Positions 1 to 64,000 of a stretch of 64,000 bases of DNA are shown piece by piece. The position numbers and the translations under genes were made by a program. Source of the stretch: a virus. A model generated the notes under the pieces. It worked only from the letters and a program-made list of their open reading frames with translations. It had not been told where the DNA came from and did no database searches. Position 1 is the first letter of the stretch; every line of letters begins with the position of its first letter. The stretch lies in the IMG/VR virus record IMGVR_UViG_3300042534_000747. One strand, 5' to 3'.

Positions 1-1062
1 CATAGGCAATTCATATGTAGTCACTGGTGTTGTGATTGAAATTGAAACATCATCTATTGCAGTATTAAAGGTGATGGTTAATGTTACATCTGTTCCAGTA
101 GTCACGGATTCTGATGATAATTCTTCTGAAATTAATGATAATATAATAATTGGTTCTGATATAACATATGTTGGCTCTGTATCAGTGTATTGACGTACAA
201 TTATCCAATCTACATATGAAACAGCAGTTTGATAAACACAAAATCCTAATTTTGCATTATTTTCTGTGCCTGTAACAAATTTAGATTCACCATTGAATTG
301 ATATTCAATTGTCGATTCATCTTGTAATATAATTTTAGAGTCATACCATGTATCTACTTCTACCATTGGAGTAATAAAATCAGTCCAAGTTGTAGTATAA
401 TATTGATGTCCATTATAAATATTACCATGCACAGTTGTAGTGCTTAAAGCAGGTCTATAACCCCATACAAAAGCATCATATACTTCCGATTGTTGTTTAG
501 ATTCAAATATATAACCCATTTCTGCACGGTTAAATGTTCTTAAACTTAATATACCATTTCCACCCCATCCATTGAAACCTGTCATTTTTAAAGAACCGTC
601 TATAACATTTATATTTGCAGCAGCATCGGTTTCTGTCCATTTTGTAGCATCTACTTCATCTCCATTGAAATCATCACCAAATATCATTACAGAATCAATA
701 TTACCTGTATATGTTTTTGTATTATCTCCAAATTGCATTGATAATATATTGTCACCTATTGCAAGTGTTGGTATTTTAATCCAAAAATTAGCAGTTTCAC
801 CACTTGTATATTCTGAAATCCAATATGGTAATTCTGTTTCACCTTGATAGAATCTTACATCTTCAAAAGTACTATCCATACCTGTTTCGTAAGGAACAAC
901 TATTTTCATTTGATAATCTGTTAAAGTTGCTGTACTTGTAACTGTTATTTCTTGTTCATATAAATTATTATCAACTAAAGCACCTATATTTGTTAATGAA
1001 AACGCACAGATGCCAAATAATGAAAATAATAATATGATATATATAACTTTCTTATTCATCAT
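1..1062 (-). CDS. Secreted DUF2341-type surface/adhesin protein, partial (runs off the left end)
   Basis: Not in the ORF track. I translated an open frame from ATG 1062 to base 1: signal peptide MMNKKVIYIILLFSLFGICAF, then DYQMKIVVPYETGMDSTFEDVRF...ELPYWISEYTSGETANFWIKIP and FGDDFNG...YVDWIIVRQY, typical of DUF2341 + lectin-like domains. Confidence 0.75.
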   Translation of the reverse strand, partial: MMNKKVIYIILLFSLFGICAFSLTNIGALVDNNLYEQEITVTSTATLTDYQMKIVVPYETGMDSTFEDVRFYQGETELPYWISEYTSGETANFWIKIPTLAIGDNILSMQFGDNTKTYTGNIDSVMIFGDDFNGDEVDATKWTETDAAANINVIDGSLKMTGFNGWGGNGILSLRTFNRAEMGYIFESKQQSEVYDAFVWGYRPALSTTTVHGNIYNGHQYYTTTWTDFITPMVEVDTWYDSKIILQDESTIEYQFNGESKFVTGTENNAKLGFCVYQTAVSYVDWIIVRQYTDTEPTYVISEPIIILSLISEELSSESVTTGTDVTLTITFNTAIDDVSISITTPVTTYELPM

Positions 1063-1118
1063 ATTATTATAATTAATATGAAAGTATATAAACTTTTTTA
1101 TAAAAGATATAGATTAAT

Positions 1119-1793
1119 TTATGTTTGAGGTATTTGTTTTTCAGATTGCCAATACTCTTTTGTTTCTATATTCATGATTGTAAGATATCCTTTCCATCCT
1201 GCACCTGTATCAAGCATCCATAAGTTATTGTGCTGAATAGGCTTAAATGAGCCATAAAATTCTGTTGTAGTGTGACCTACAAATATCTGGTCATAATTAG
1301 ATATTGCAACTACTCTTGATAAATTGCACAATTCTCTATTCCATGTTATATCTTCAAGTAACTGTTCTTCAATTGATTTAAATGGGTCAAAACCACCATG
1401 AACAAAGATTGATTTTTTACCTGCAATATTTTCTATATGATATGGTAAACCTGAAAGTAAAAAATCAAGATGTGAATCAGGTATTACATTATCATTCTTA
1501 TAGCGATATGATAACATTGTATTCATACCACCCTGATTCCACCATAGAGGAAATTCATATCTATCTTCATCTAAAATATAATCAATGAACCATAAATCAT
1601 GATTTCCAGTTATCAATATTTTATTTGGTAAATCTTTGAGATAATCAATTACTTGAAAAGTTTGCATTCCACCATCACAAACATCTCCTAAAATGTATAA
1701 TTCATCATTTTTAGGATTAAAATTAGATTTTTCTATTACTTCCATTAAAGCCTTGAATCTTCCATGAATATCACCTATTACAAATTTAGACAT
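1119..1793 (-). CDS. Calcineurin-like metallophosphoesterase (PPP/lambda-phosphatase family)
   Basis: Motifs GDIHG, GDVCDGG, GNHD, VHGG, GHT, LDTGA. Confidence 0.92.
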   Translation of the reverse strand: MSKFVIGDIHGRFKALMEVIEKSNFNPKNDELYILGDVCDGGMQTFQVIDYLKDLPNKILITGNHDLWFIDYILDEDRYEFPLWWNQGGMNTMLSYRYKNDNVIPDSHLDFLLSGLPYHIENIAGKKSIFVHGGFDPFKSIEEQLLEDITWNRELCNLSRVVAISNYDQIFVGHTTTEFYGSFKPIQHNNLWMLDTGAGWKGYLTIMNIETKEYWQSEKQIPQT

Positions 1794-2259
1794 TACAATA
1801 TTCTCCTACCAAATCACAATCAAAATCAAAATCAAATTCACGTAAAATTTCATCTGGTAAGTTATTTATTATTTTATCAATTTCATCATTGCAATAATTT
1901 ATTATTTTATTTACAAATTCATCTGATTCATTTTCAAATAATGTACCACATTCAATAAGTTGAATAATATCATAAAGTTCACAAACATTAGTTTTTACAA
2001 GATTATCTATCATTTCCTTATTTTCATCAATATCATCTTTTAAATTTAATTTTATCCAATCTTGCCAACAATAAAATTCTGCTTCACTACCTTCAATTGC
2101 ATCTTCAATTGTATTATAGCAATAACAATCTAATTTTTGTTTACATTCAGGACAAATAGGCTTATTTCTATATTGATTTGTTTCAGAATCAAAATAAATT
2201 TTTAATTTTGAAATATCTTCATTTCCATATTCTGTAATAAGTGTTAATGATTCTTTCAT
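1786..2259 (-). CDS. Hypothetical acidic protein with CxxC
   Basis: 157-aa ORF coupled to the next gene, upstream GTAGG RBS, CPEC motif. Confidence 0.6.
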   Translation of the reverse strand: MKESLTLITEYGNEDISKLKIYFDSETNQYRNKPICPECKQKLDCYCYNTIEDAIEGSEAEFYCWQDWIKLNLKDDIDENKEMIDNLVKTNVCELYDIIQLIECGTLFENESDEFVNKIINYCNDEIDKIINNLPDEILREFDFDFDCDLVGEYCNV

Positions 2260-2320
2260 TGTTTTATCCTACATTTTGCTAAATATATGTATGTAATCAT
2301 ATTTAAGTGTATGTAAAATA

Positions 2321-61916: not shown

Positions 61917-63188
61917 CTAAAATGAATATGCAATGGCAAAAATAAAGAATATCATACTTAAAATAAATGGCAATAGATATGATGAACGTGAGTTATCATA
62001 ATTTTTATGGTATGTAGTTTTATCTATACTATTATATGTAGCATGACCATCGTTATTAAGAGATTTATTTCCTATTCTTGAAATTACTTTATCAGCAAGT
62101 AATTCAGCTTGTTCATTTTCAAATTTGTATTTATTATTTTTAGTTTTTGCTTCTGAAACAAATTTATCAAATCCCTTTTTAACTAAGAACCATGCAATGA
62201 GCATGAAAAATATATAAGTCCATTGATAATCAGGATGCATGATATAAATTAAACTATATACAGTTGTTATAATTCCTGCGTATAATGGATAGTTGGCACT
62301 CATATCCTGTAATCCACCTGATAAAGATGAGGACATATAAATTCCTGCTACTAAATGTGTTATAATATAAACAAACATGAATACCATTATATAGCAAAAT
62401 GCTCCAATTACTAATACATATAATAAATCAAAATTTGTAGCATTTGATATAAAATAAATTCCATTATTTAGATAATCTAATGCTTTTGAATATTCATGGA
62501 ATGGATTGGACATTATCATAGCCATAAAAGCGTTTGGAACTATACCAAGTATTAATGCAATTAATAATTTGAAAGGTGCTAATGTTAATACTAAATCTTT
62601 TAATACATGGTTTGCTTTATTATTTCCACGATAGTGATTTTCTATCATTGTAAAGAATAAATAAAATCCTGATACAAATAAGAAAATTTGCCAAATAGTA
62701 TCTATAAATGAATAAAACAATACTAAAATTTTTAATGATATACTGGATTCATCTATTACAGCACTTTCACTATAAGTTGAAATTACATTAGATGCATGTG
62801 TGAAAAATTTATAGTGTAGTATATACTCTATCGATGTTAATGTTTTGTAAAAGAATGGACTTGTATAAGTGCCAAATGGTAATTCAAATACATATGTTCC
62901 AAATCCTTCAAATCTATTAGGGAAAACAATAGGTAATAGTCCATCTGATATAAAAACAGGTGATAATGAAGTTAATATTCTAACTCCTATTTTTTTAATT
63001 CTACCTGTAAGTAAATATATCATTAGGAATAAAGAACCCATTACAACCCAATAGACTAAAGATGAGCTTGAATCAAATCCTATTCCTTGTGCTATTGTGT
63101 TTAAGAATATATCATCTTTTGTAACAGTTGCATTTATGATAGTTTCATTTACTGCATTTGTTATTTCAAGCGATTCGTTTAAAGTCAT
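61917..63188 (-). CDS. Multi-pass membrane protein of unknown function
   Basis: 423 aa, about 8 hydrophobic segments. Confidence 0.7.
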   Translation of the reverse strand: MTLNESLEITNAVNETIINATVTKDDIFLNTIAQGIGFDSSSSLVYWVVMGSLFLMIYLLTGRIKKIGVRILTSLSPVFISDGLLPIVFPNRFEGFGTYVFELPFGTYTSPFFYKTLTSIEYILHYKFFTHASNVISTYSESAVIDESSISLKILVLFYSFIDTIWQIFLFVSGFYLFFTMIENHYRGNNKANHVLKDLVLTLAPFKLLIALILGIVPNAFMAMIMSNPFHEYSKALDYLNNGIYFISNATNFDLLYVLVIGAFCYIMVFMFVYIITHLVAGIYMSSSLSGGLQDMSANYPLYAGIITTVYSLIYIMHPDYQWTYIFFMLIAWFLVKKGFDKFVSEAKTKNNKYKFENEQAELLADKVISRIGNKSLNNDGHATYNSIDKTTYHKNYDNSRSSYLLPFILSMIFFIFAIAYSF

Positions 63189-63473
63189 AAATTCCCTCTT
63201 TAATTATTTTTATAGTTATCTAAAAATATTATTATTTTAGAAGTATATAAAGGTATCTAGTATATAAAGAATTAATAAACAAAATATTTTTCTAATGAAA
63301 AATCGTTATCTGACGTACTATATTTCATTTTTAAATGTACATGATGCCAAAAGATTTATATAGTACATCTACTGTATTAATATATTAATGCTTATATTAA
63401 AAGTTTTACATTAGATGTGAGTTATGTAATGCTTGTAAAGCATGTAAAGAGAAAAAAGAAAAGATGTGATGTA

Positions 63474-63839
63474 ATGAGTACACTAGGAATACACGATGAA
63501 ACCCTTGAATATATTAATACTACAAAAAGAAGAGTAAACAGCGAACTTGATGTTGATATGCATAATAATGATATTGTAGCACTTATGTGTGCAGTTTGTG
63601 ATGTAGATACTATTTGTAAAAGATATAATGAAATTAAAAATAATATTAATGGTTCTACTGAAGTAAGTCATGTTGATATTATAAATTTTATTCGTAAAGA
63701 AGGGTTAACAAATAATCTTGATAAAAAGGTTATTGTTGAAACTATAAATGATGATGATGTTGCAAGTTATAGAGTTGTAAAAAATATTAATGATGAAATT
63801 GTTGATGTAAATGAAACAAATGAAGAAGATTACGTTTAA
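63474..63839 (+). CDS. Hypothetical protein, possibly RHH-like N-terminus (start revised from 63417)
   Basis: MSTLGIHDETLEYINTTK behind a GTGA-type RBS. Confidence 0.5.
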   Translation: MSTLGIHDETLEYINTTKRRVNSELDVDMHNNDIVALMCAVCDVDTICKRYNEIKNNINGSTEVSHVDIINFIRKEGLTNNLDKKVIVETINDDDVASYRVVKNINDEIVDVNETNEEDYV

Positions 63840-63866
63840 ATTAAAAAAGTAAATGGAGTATTAAAT

Positions 63867-64000
63867 ATGAAAAAAATTATATATATATTAATGTTATTAA
63901 TGATTTTAAGTCCACTACATGCAAGTGCAAGTGTTTTTGATGTAGGGTATTGCAATCTTAATGTTTATTATTTGCCTACTGGTATTGATTATGCAGATGC
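63867..64000 (+). CDS. Secreted protein, partial (runs off the right end)
   Basis: GGAG RBS; signal peptide MKKIIYILMLLMILSPLHASA. Confidence 0.65.
   Translation, partial: MKKIIYILMLLMILSPLHASASVFDVGYCNLNVYYLPTGIDYAD

What the first reader, a model, noticed from the sequence alone, without database searches (positions are those of the whole stretch)
1..64000. Gly-Pro and Pro-Gly appear absent from the proteome: GGNCC and CCNGG avoidance rewriting conserved motifs
Seen: reading all ORF translations I found no GP or PG dipeptide. GP always encodes GGNCC and PG always encodes CCNGG. Normally conserved motifs are altered accordingly: RFC Walker A GPPG becomes GEQG (RFC-S) and GEAG (RFC-L); NrdJ GTASGP becomes GTASGH and GEPG becomes GEPA; M50 AGP becomes APP; phosphatase DRGP becomes DGGM. 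Known: GGNCC (Sau96I-type) and CCNGG/CCWGG (ScrFI/EcoRII-type) are restriction targets. Inference: restriction pressure strong enough to change amino acids in enzyme core motifs, which is also a fingerprint for host assignment.
Basis: partly seen in the sequence, partly recalled or inferred. Interest (0 to 1): 0.75.

Follow-up and report, generated by a model that had tools for sequence, protein, structure and literature searches.

The report
Restriction-site purge forbids Gly-Pro, Pro-Gly
A large AT-rich archaeal virus-like element has lost at least a dozen short palindromic DNA words, which makes Gly-Pro, Pro-Gly, Trp-Pro and Pro-Trp impossible to encode; this is an extreme archaeal case of a known anti-restriction strategy, not a new mechanism.

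Summary
The 64-kb window (26.6% GC) has no GATC, GGCC, GGNCC, GGNNCC, CCGG, CCNGG, CCNNGG, GCGC, CGCG, CTYRAG, TTCGAA, CTGCAG or GAAGAC. CCN7GG occurs 4 times against about 27 expected.

GG/CC pairs with gaps of 3 or more are normal, so the cause is not composition. GP, PG, WP and PW are absent (0 against 23, 23, 5 and 5 expected). PxxG occurs 4 times against 23.5.

About 90% of the GGNCC and CCNGG loss is carried by the protein sequence. Walker A prolines are replaced in four ATPases, while most syntenic relatives keep GP/PG.

A sister element (L093) shares many of these replacements but now carries GGNCC at the level its proteins predict. The amino-acid changes are therefore probably ancestral and can outlast the pressure.

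Staphylococcus phage K shows the same effect: no GATC or GGNCC, and GP 0 against 49 expected.

This scan had already recorded the same phenomenon in other phages. The host and its restriction enzymes were not identified.

Verdict: real, striking, and a new member of a known kind.

The parts
1..64000 (.). Whole window. No GATC, GGCC, GGNCC, GGNNCC, CCGG, CCNGG, CCNNGG, GCGC, CGCG, CTYRAG, TTCGAA, CTGCAG or GAAGAC on either strand. CpG observed/expected is 0.25.
27293..28354 (-). RFC small subunit. Walker A is GEQGVGKT at 28154-28177; most relatives and Archaeoglobus RFC-S have GPPG/GPAG.
19473..20807 (-). RFC large-subunit-like AAA+ protein. Walker A is GEAGTGKT at 20634-20657; relatives have GAPGTGKT or GPAGIGKT.
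20815..22626 (-). XPD/DinG-like helicase. Walker A is APTGTGKS at 22480-22503; relatives have GP in 2 of 5 and PG in 3 of 5 at these columns.
31113..32219 (-). AAA_24 ATPase. Walker A is GSTHTGKT at 32064-32087; 2 of 4 relatives have PG here.
23206..25953 (-). Family B DNA polymerase. The conserved PG (4 of 6 relatives) is AG at 24613-24636 (ESKAGIHK). L093 has the same change.
48860..51658 (-). Class II ribonucleotide reductase with an intein. GTASGH at 50669-50686 (GTASGP in 1l1l); SGEPAF at 49850-49867 (NGEPGI in 1l1l).
29059..30111 (-). Conserved replication-module ORF (phrog_9660). GP in 3 of 4 relatives is split by an inserted Asn (VGNPLQ, 30049-30066; also in L093). GP in 4 of 4 relatives is GS here (29797-29817).
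1119..1793 (-). PPP-family metallophosphatase. Motif GDVCDGGM at 1665-1688, where the family usually has GDxxDRGP.
3086..3096 (.). One of the only four remaining CCN7GG sites. The others start at 6421, 32918 and 60919.

Best explanation
The window belongs to a 202.5-kb archaeal virus-like replicon. It carries family B polymerase, RFC-S and RFC-L, an XPD-like helicase, a Cas4-like nuclease, ERCC4, an ATP-dependent ligase and NrdJ. Its DNA has been purged by selection of every copy of at least 13 short, mostly palindromic words that match Type II restriction specificities.

Where synonymous codons exist, codon choice does the work. Asp is GAC in 44 of 44 cases before a C and GAT about 94% of the time elsewhere.

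Where the genetic code leaves no way out, the amino acid itself was changed:
- GGN-CCN (GP) contains GGNCC.
- CCN-GGN (PG) contains CCNGG.
- TGG-CCN (WP) contains GGCC.
- CCN-TGG (PW) contains CCNNGG.
- ATG/TGG-GNN-CCN contains GGNNCC.
- CCN-NNN-NNN-GGN (PxxG) contains CCN7GG.

At conserved sites it is usually the proline that is replaced. Proline makes up 2.5% of residues here against 4.6% in relatives.

Many replacements are shared with the sister element L093, so they arose in a common ancestor.

Shown: the counts, the nulls, the motif comparisons, and the lineage-specific sets of purged words. Inferred: that the selecting agents are host restriction endonucleases.
For: - Zero counts against strong expectations under four nulls: base composition, Markov models, same-phase long-gap background and codon shuffles.
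- The spacing is sharp. GG/CC pairs are absent at gaps 0-2 and normal at gaps of 3 or more.
- With proteins held fixed, the six GG/CC words together are still expected about 34 times and GATC 94 times; all are 0.
- One-mismatch neighbours occur at about 0.4-1.0 of expectation.
- Codon choice switches with context.
- In 71 other loci of at least 10 kb, including archaeal loci of 27-33% GC, 64 have none of nine words strongly depleted; the maximum is three.
- Relatives purge different subsets. L003 and L004 lack GATC and GGCC. L002 and L007 lack CTAG and CGCG. L093 lacks GATC and GGCC and has one CCNGG.
- Relatives that keep the sites have GP/PG near expectation and canonical Walker A motifs.
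- The 4.6 kb beyond the window end, read from a second assembly, is also free of these words.
- Phage K shows the same causal chain: GATC 0, GGNCC 0, GP 0 against 49 expected (PMC7958385).
- GGNCC, GATC, CCGG, CGCG and CCNGG methyltransferases are listed for archaea, including Methanobrevibacter, Methanocaldococcus and Micrarchaeum (PMC11033074).
Against: - The host is unknown, so no cognate restriction enzyme is tied to any purged word.
- With the window's own proteins held fixed, GGNCC and CCNGG are expected only 2.4 and 3.4 times. For these two words the DNA-level signal independent of protein sequence is modest: about 5.8 expected in total, 0 seen.
- L093 lacks GP (1 against 11.3) although its GGNCC count equals its protein-fixed expectation.
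- Only 68.6 of 202.5 kb was examined.
- The second assembly of the element is identical in sequence, so there is no polymorphism data.
Confidence: 0.82

Rival explanations
1. The element encodes its own site-specific nucleases to degrade host DNA and protects itself by lacking the sites, rather than escaping host enzymes.
For: The window holds several nucleases: a PD-(D/E)XK Cas4-like protein, ERCC4 and GIY-YIG. No recognised DNA methyltransferase was found among the 87 ORFs. One marginal PADLOC REase_II hit has E = 8.6e-4.
Against: Thirteen or more words would need many nucleases. The nucleases seen belong to replication/repair or homing families and are conserved in relatives that keep the sites. 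The REase hit is at noise level.
Confidence: 0.05
2. One unknown host defence recognises closely spaced GG/CC pairs (GGN0-2CC, CCN0-2GG) as a class, instead of six separate enzymes.
For: All six spacing and orientation variants are exactly zero together, and normal counts return abruptly at gap 3.
Against: The six words separate in relatives. L003 and L004 lack GGCC but keep GGNCC and CCNGG. L093 has one CCNGG and no GGCC but 12 GGNCC, 20 GGNNCC and 17 CCNNGG. L007 is low only in GGNCC. Phage K lacks GGCC and GGNCC but keeps GGNNCC, CCGG, CCNGG and CCNNGG. Each word matches a known Type II specificity (own knowledge of REBASE prototypes such as HaeIII, Sau96I, NlaIV, HpaII, ScrFI, BsaJI).
Confidence: 0.05
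3. Mutational decay rather than selection: methylated cytosines in these words deaminate, and the words erode along with CpG.
For: CpG observed/expected is 0.25, and TG and CA are over-represented at 1.33-1.37. Most of the purged words are typical m5C or m4C targets.
Against: Transition neighbours of the purged words are not enriched (observed/expected 0.41-0.85, against 0.81-1.02 for transversion neighbours). GATC, whose prototype methylation is m6A (though PMC11033074 also lists m5C GATC methyltransferases), shows the strongest loss. Decay does not give exact zeros at conserved protein positions or a 44-of-44 codon switch.
Confidence: 0.03
4. The dipeptides are avoided for protein-level reasons, and the DNA words are missing as a by-product.
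For: With proteins fixed, only 2.4 GGNCC and 3.4 CCNGG are expected. L093 lacks GP without synonymous-level GGNCC avoidance. About a fifth of the nearest RFC-S homologue clusters lack GP/PG.
Against: No known protein constraint forbids GP, PG, WP, PW, PxxG and [MW][VADEG]P together, yet each maps onto one purged palindrome. The sister words GGCC, GGNNCC, CCGG and CCNNGG, together with GATC, are purged at synonymous and out-of-frame positions too (28 and 94 expected with proteins fixed, all 0). L093 shows strong synonymous-level CCNGG avoidance (1 against 13.0).
Confidence: 0.03

Closest known systems
Restriction-site (palindrome) avoidance in virulent dsDNA phages and archaeal viruses (Sharp 1986; Gelfand and Koonin 1997; Rusinov et al. 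2018, PMC6286503)
   Same: Short Type II-like palindromes are eliminated genome-wide. The purged set differs between lineages. Context-dependent synonymous codon switching does part of the work.
   Different: The breadth is unusual: at least 13 words are at or near zero in an archaeal element. A large share of the loss is paid for in amino-acid changes. The review read here describes avoidance as synonymous (PMC8410138), and Rusinov et al. 2018 contains no mention of amino acids, codons or synonymous changes.
Staphylococcus phage K and K-like Kayvirus (no GATC, at most one GGNCC; PMC7958385)
   Same: In the first 100 kb of NC_005880 I counted GATC 0, GGCC 0, GGNCC 0, CGCG 0, GP 0 (49 expected) and WP 0 (7 expected). 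This is the same route from DNA word to forbidden dipeptide.
   Different: Phage K keeps CCNGG (58), CCGG, CCNNGG and PG (34). It is a bacterial virus with a known host and known enzymes (Sau3AI, Sau96I).
Earlier cases in this scan (e1-5351561, e1-3415497, e1-5846115)
   Same: Uncultured phages purged of GATC, GGNCC and CCNGG, with GP and PG (and in some AA and WP) missing from the proteome and conserved motifs altered (AI notes, not re-tested here).
   Different: Those are bacterial phages. Here the element is archaeal, about 200 kb, and has a sister element that keeps the protein-level imprint without the DNA-level GGNCC avoidance.

Membership tests
Restriction-site avoidance (anti-restriction strategy) | Significant under-representation of short words relative to composition-aware expectation | tested here: met
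   zeros against expectations of 5-157 under Markov, long-gap and codon-shuffle nulls
Restriction-site avoidance (anti-restriction strategy) | The avoided words are palindromic or known Type II recognition sequences, with exact specificity | tested here: met
   The words are palindromes, apart from GAAGAC. One-mismatch neighbours and gap variants of 3 or more are present. Archaeal methyltransferases for GGNCC, GATC, CCGG, CGCG and CCNGG are listed in PMC11033074. The enzyme prototype names come from my own knowledge.
Restriction-site avoidance (anti-restriction strategy) | The host encodes cognate restriction enzymes | not testable with these tools
   Host not identified. The best genome matches to PolB are 24-32% identical, in Methanomicrobiales and haloarchaea among others. 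The ligase is at most 30% identical to DPANN sequences. No whole genome is held for the window.
Restriction-site avoidance (anti-restriction strategy) | The purged set varies between related elements, as expected if it depends on the host | tested here: met
Restriction-site avoidance (anti-restriction strategy) | No alternative self-protection by element-encoded DNA methyltransferases | tested here: inconclusive
   No DNA methyltransferase family among the listed hits for the 87 window ORFs (7 of 32 Pfam families were not shown). The only methyltransferase-like ORF (15174-15782, phrog_15480) resembles small-molecule or protein methyltransferases. About 134 kb of the element was not examined. 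Relatives L003 and L006 carry N6_N4_Mtase genes.
RFC small subunit (AAA+ clamp loader) | P-loop G-x4-GK[ST] and overall family match | tested here: met
   GEQGVGKT keeps both glycines and GKT. E = 6e-81 to Archaeoglobus RFC-S 2chq, and the Pfam domains AAA, DNA_pol3_delta2 and Rep_fac_C match.

The most novel reading that the evidence does not exclude
Amino-acid scars of restriction avoidance outlast the selection that made them. Sister element L093 (39% GC, PolB 46% identical) carries GGNCC at exactly the density its proteins predict (12 against 13.2+-3.0), yet it still has almost no GP (1 against 11.3). It shares the window's GP-to-GE change, the PG-to-AG and PG-to-TG changes and the Gly-Asn-Pro insertion. 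If this holds generally, profiles of forbidden dipeptides would record past host restriction repertoires in uncultured viruses. They could be used to trace host switches where DNA-level signals have already been erased.
Probability: 0.35. Interest if true: 0.6.

Novelty: new member of a known kind. Interest (0 to 1): 0.45.

Why it matters
The case shows that escape from restriction is not always free and synonymous. Here it removes four dipeptides and most PxxG from a proteome, goes with roughly half the proline content of relatives (AT-richness may contribute), and rewrites the usually conserved GPPG/GPAG of AAA+ and helicase P-loops. The enzymes still appear intact.

For annotation, missing consensus motifs in such genomes should not be read as loss of function.

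For ecology, the list of purged words is a testable prediction of the restriction repertoire of an unknown AT-rich archaeal host.

The comparison with L093 suggests that protein-level imprints may preserve older host history.

Tried and rejected
- Low GC as the cause: rejected. Gaps of 3 or more are normal, and other loci of 27-33% GC keep the sites.
- Strand compositional skew as the cause: rejected for the same reason.
- Deamination decay: rejected by the neighbour analysis.
- Host search through PolB in viral contigs: no relatives found.
- Host search through PolB in species genomes: only 24-32% identity, in Methanomicrobiales, haloarchaeal proviruses and others.
- Host search through ligase homologues: at most 30% identity, DPANN names.
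- Search for tRNA genes in the window: none found.
- Fetching more of the 202-kb contig: an exact-pattern scan of JGI metagenomes found nothing. Logan contigs added only 4.6 kb.
- A genome-wide screen of candidate host phyla for purged words was not run. Hosts protect their own sites by methylation, so absence of sites is not expected in them, and I had no genome handle in Methanobacteriales or Methanococcales.
- Link to the Klingon/Romulan/Ferengi archaeal elements: not supported. Their GC is 38-49%, and the replication genes searched for are absent from that text, apart from one mention of a clamp loader.
- The M50 'AGP to APP' claim could not be evaluated.
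Full report
**Observation.** The window is 64,000 bp, 26.6% GC, with CpG observed/expected 0.25. GGNCC and CCNGG are absent on both strands. So are GATC, GGCC, GGNNCC, CCGG, CCNNGG, GCGC and CGCG, and CTTAAG, TTCGAA and CTGCAG. The whole CTYRAG set and GAAGAC are also absent. CCN7GG occurs four times.

A scan of spacings shows how sharp the effect is. GG-CC and CC-GG pairs are 0 at gaps 0, 1 and 2. At gaps 3-15 they occur 13-43 times each, apart from CCN7GG.

An unbiased scan was run over all dinucleotide pairs at gaps 0-8, against a same-phase long-gap background. 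GATC comes out first (0 against 156). CCNGG (0/33), GGNCC (0/30), CCN7GG (4/33), GGCC, GGNNCC, CCGG, CCNNGG and GCGC all fall among the most depleted patterns, and nearly all are palindromes.

**Null models.** Shuffling codon order within genes keeps each gene's amino-acid content and codon usage. It gives GGNCC 26.1+-5.5 (minimum 13 in 200 shuffles), CCNGG 26.6+-5.0 (minimum 16), GATC 157+-11 and CCN7GG 26.8+-4.9. It gives GP 22.8, PG 23.0, WP 5.0 and PW 5.1.

Shuffling only synonymous codons keeps the proteins fixed. It gives:

| Word | Expected, proteins fixed | Observed |
|---|---|---|
| GATC | 94 | 0 |
| GGNNCC | 10.5 | 0 |
| CCGG | 6.5 | 0 |
| GGCC | 5.9 | 0 |
| CCNNGG | 5.4 | 0 |
| TTCGAA | 15.5 | 0 |
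| GGNCC | 2.4 | 0 |
| CCNGG | 3.4 | 0 |

Two conclusions follow. Selection acts at synonymous and out-of-frame positions for the word family as a whole. And about 90% of the GGNCC and CCNGG loss is carried by the protein sequence itself.

**Proteome.** In 87 ORFs (19,715 aa), GP, PG, WP and PW are each 0, against 23.4, 23.4, 5.3 and 5.3 expected. This follows from the genetic code:
- GGN-CCN contains GGNCC.
- CCN-GGN contains CCNGG.
- TGG-CCN contains GGCC.
- CCN-TGG contains CCNNGG.
- ATG- or TGG-GNN-CCN contains GGNNCC. Accordingly [MW][VADEG]P is 0 against 5.7.
- CCN-NNN-NNN-GGN contains CCN7GG. Accordingly PxxG is 4 against 23.5, while PxG, PxxxG and GxxP are normal or high.

Among all 400 dipeptides, GP and PG are the two most depleted. 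DH, DQ and DP come next; these would need the rare GAC codon to avoid GAT-C.

Codon choice shows the synonymous side of the purge. Asp before a C is GAC in 44 of 44 cases and GAT about 94% of the time elsewhere. Ile after a G is never ATC. Gly before a C is never GGC or GGG.

Proline is 2.5% of residues here against 4.6% in relatives, while glycine is unchanged.

**What the element is.** The window lies on a 202,507-bp contig. It carries an archaeal-type replication module:
- family B polymerase
- RFC-S and RFC-L
- XPD/DinG-like helicase
- Cas4-like nuclease
- ERCC4
- AAA_24 ATPase
- ATP-dependent ligase
- NrdJ with an intein

The closest cultured relatives of the polymerase are haloarchaeal tailed viruses, at 25-27% identity.

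A second assembly, from SRR35183614, contains an identical 22.7-kb stretch. It also supplies 4.6 kb beyond the window end, and that stretch is free of all the words except CCN7GG, which occurs twice.

**Relatives.** Six syntenic metagenomic relatives (L002-L007; polymerase 37-42% identical, 31-37% GC) carry GGNCC and CCNGG roughly as expected. Each purges its own subset of words. L003 and L004 lack GATC and GGCC. L002 and L007 lack CTAG and CGCG. L007, L005 and L002 are partly low in GGNCC, with matching low GP.

Their Walker A motifs are canonical:

| Protein | Relatives | Window |
|---|---|---|
| RFC-S | GPPASGKT / GPAGTGKT | GEQGVGKT |
| RFC-L | GAPGTGKT / GPAGIGKT | GEAGTGKT |
| Helicase | GP and PG | APTGTGKS |
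| AAA_24 | PG | GSTHTGKT |
| Polymerase | PG in 4 of 6 | AG |

In one conserved ORF, a GP present in all four relatives is GS in the window. Another GP is split by an inserted Asn, giving VGNPLQ.

Against solved structures, the window reads GTASGH and GEPA where the Lactobacillus enzyme (1l1l) has GTASGP and GEPG. It reads GEQG where Archaeoglobus RFC-S has GPPG.

As a control, I examined 71 other fetched loci of at least 10 kb, including archaeal loci of 27-33% GC. In 64 of them none of nine words is strongly depleted, and the maximum is three. The window has nine of nine.

**How essential are the replaced residues?** The G-x4-GK[ST] core is kept in all four ATPases. Among the 133 nearest RFC-S cluster representatives with a recognisable Walker A, 83 begin with GP, 65 contain PG and 31 have neither. 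Of 134 checked, 29 have no GP or PG anywhere in the protein. The prolines are usual but dispensable. 'Core motif rewriting' is therefore true in form, but it falls on tolerant positions.

**The sister element.** The RFC-S search led to two closer relatives.
- P0117 is 65% identical and has Walker A GRAGVGKT. Its 1.5-kb contig has none of GATC, GGCC, GGNCC, GGNNCC, CCNGG or CCNNGG, against about 12 expected in total.
- L093 is part of a 183-kb JGI contig with the same gene order. Its polymerase is 46% identical and its GC is 39%.

L093 lacks GATC (0/73 by composition) and GGCC (0/30) and has a single CCNGG. With its proteins fixed, 13.0+-3.1 CCNGG are expected. Its GGNCC count (12) equals its protein-fixed expectation (13.2+-3.0), whereas the codon-order expectation is 26.1. 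Even so, its proteome has GP 1/11.3 and PG 1/11.3.

L093 also shares the window's replacements in RFC-S (GE), the polymerase (AG), the helicase (TG) and the Gly-Asn-Pro insertion.

The simplest reading is that the common ancestor already avoided both words. On the L093 lineage, GGNCC pressure was later relaxed, perhaps by a host change or by gaining a methyltransferase. Sites then returned at silent positions, but the amino-acid changes stayed. This is an inference.

I read that as inheritance rather than as evidence against the causal link, because L093 does show strong DNA-level avoidance of CCNGG, GGCC and GATC.

**Mechanism and rivals.** The best explanation is selection by several host Type II-like restriction endonucleases (confidence 0.82).
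- Decay by deamination is unlikely. Transition neighbours of the purged words are not enriched, and GATC shows the largest loss.
- A single unknown system reading GG/CC pairs is unlikely, because the six words separate in relatives and in phage K.
- Self-encoded nucleases are not supported in the window. No DNA methyltransferase and only a noise-level REase hit were found among the 87 ORFs. About 134 kb was not examined.
- A purely protein-level cause cannot explain the zeros at synonymous positions.

**Host.** The host was not identified. A review table lists GGNCC and GATC methyltransferases in Methanobrevibacter and Methanocaldococcus, CCGG in Methanocaldococcus and Methanotorris, and CCNGG in Micrarchaeum (PMC11033074). 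This makes an AT-rich methanogen or a DPANN host plausible. It is only a lead.

**Comparison with what is known.** Site avoidance is a long-established anti-restriction strategy (PMC6286503). K-like staphylococcal phages are reported to have no GATC and one GGNCC (PMC7958385). I counted the first 100 kb of phage K and found GATC 0, GGCC 0, GGNCC 0, CGCG 0, GP 0/49 and WP 0/7, but PG 34 and CCNGG 58. A dipeptide-free proteome caused by site avoidance therefore already exists in a well-known phage.

The review read here describes avoidance as synonymous, and Rusinov et al. 2018 contains none of the terms 'amino acid', 'synonymous' or 'codon'. Searches for an explicit treatment of forbidden dipeptides found nothing.

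This scan has itself recorded the same phenomenon in at least three other phage windows.

**Verdict.** This is a new, extreme, archaeal member of a known kind. Interest is 0.45. The most novel defensible reading is that protein-level scars persist after the pressure has gone.

Noticed in passing
L093:1-21047 (JGI 3300042535, Ga0455843_0000014, 183,084 bp): A sister large element with the same replication-gene order plus a TnpB/IS605 gene. GC is 39% and the polymerase is 46% identical. It lacks GATC and GGCC and has one CCNGG. A near-identical stretch occurs in Logan SRR35175267 (L094).
   Followed up: partly
window 1-64000: CpG observed/expected is 0.25 here but 0.70-0.97 in relatives L002-L007 and 0.71 in L093. 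All NCGN tetramers are 3-5-fold low (TCGA 29 against 152 by composition). This general CpG depletion goes beyond the specific purged words and is unexplained.
   Followed up: partly
window 1-64000: TGCA is over-represented: 406 against 305+-12 (codon-order shuffle) and 326+-10 (synonymous shuffle). CATC is also high (428 against 238 by first-order Markov).
   Followed up: no
window 15174-15782 (-): A 202-aa class I SAM methyltransferase-fold protein matches phrog_15480 'methyltransferase' (E = 9e-50). Its only other resemblance is weak, to spermidine synthases and protein N-terminal methyltransferases. Its substrate is unknown, and it is not a recognised DNA methyltransferase.
   Followed up: partly
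window 20815-22626 (-) and other ORFs: PADLOC gives typeIV_DinG (E = 4e-57), probably the XPD-like helicase, and NsnA (E = 1.5e-26) for one unidentified ORF. The NsnA hit was not traced to its ORF.
   Followed up: no
L003:12617-13432, L006:4401-5231 and L006:7695-8441: Relatives that keep the sites carry N6_N4_Mtase genes inside the replication module. The window has none there, which suggests methylation and site loss are alternative strategies within one clade.
   Followed up: no
window 1119-1793 (-): The PPP-family phosphatase has GDVCDGGM in place of the usual GDxxDRGP. Loss of the Arg is not explained by site avoidance and may affect activity.
   Followed up: no
window 36000-48000: Strong GC skew (+0.40 to +0.43) over a block of plus-strand small ORFs, against negative skew over the minus-strand replication module. 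Skew follows the direction of transcription.
   Followed up: no
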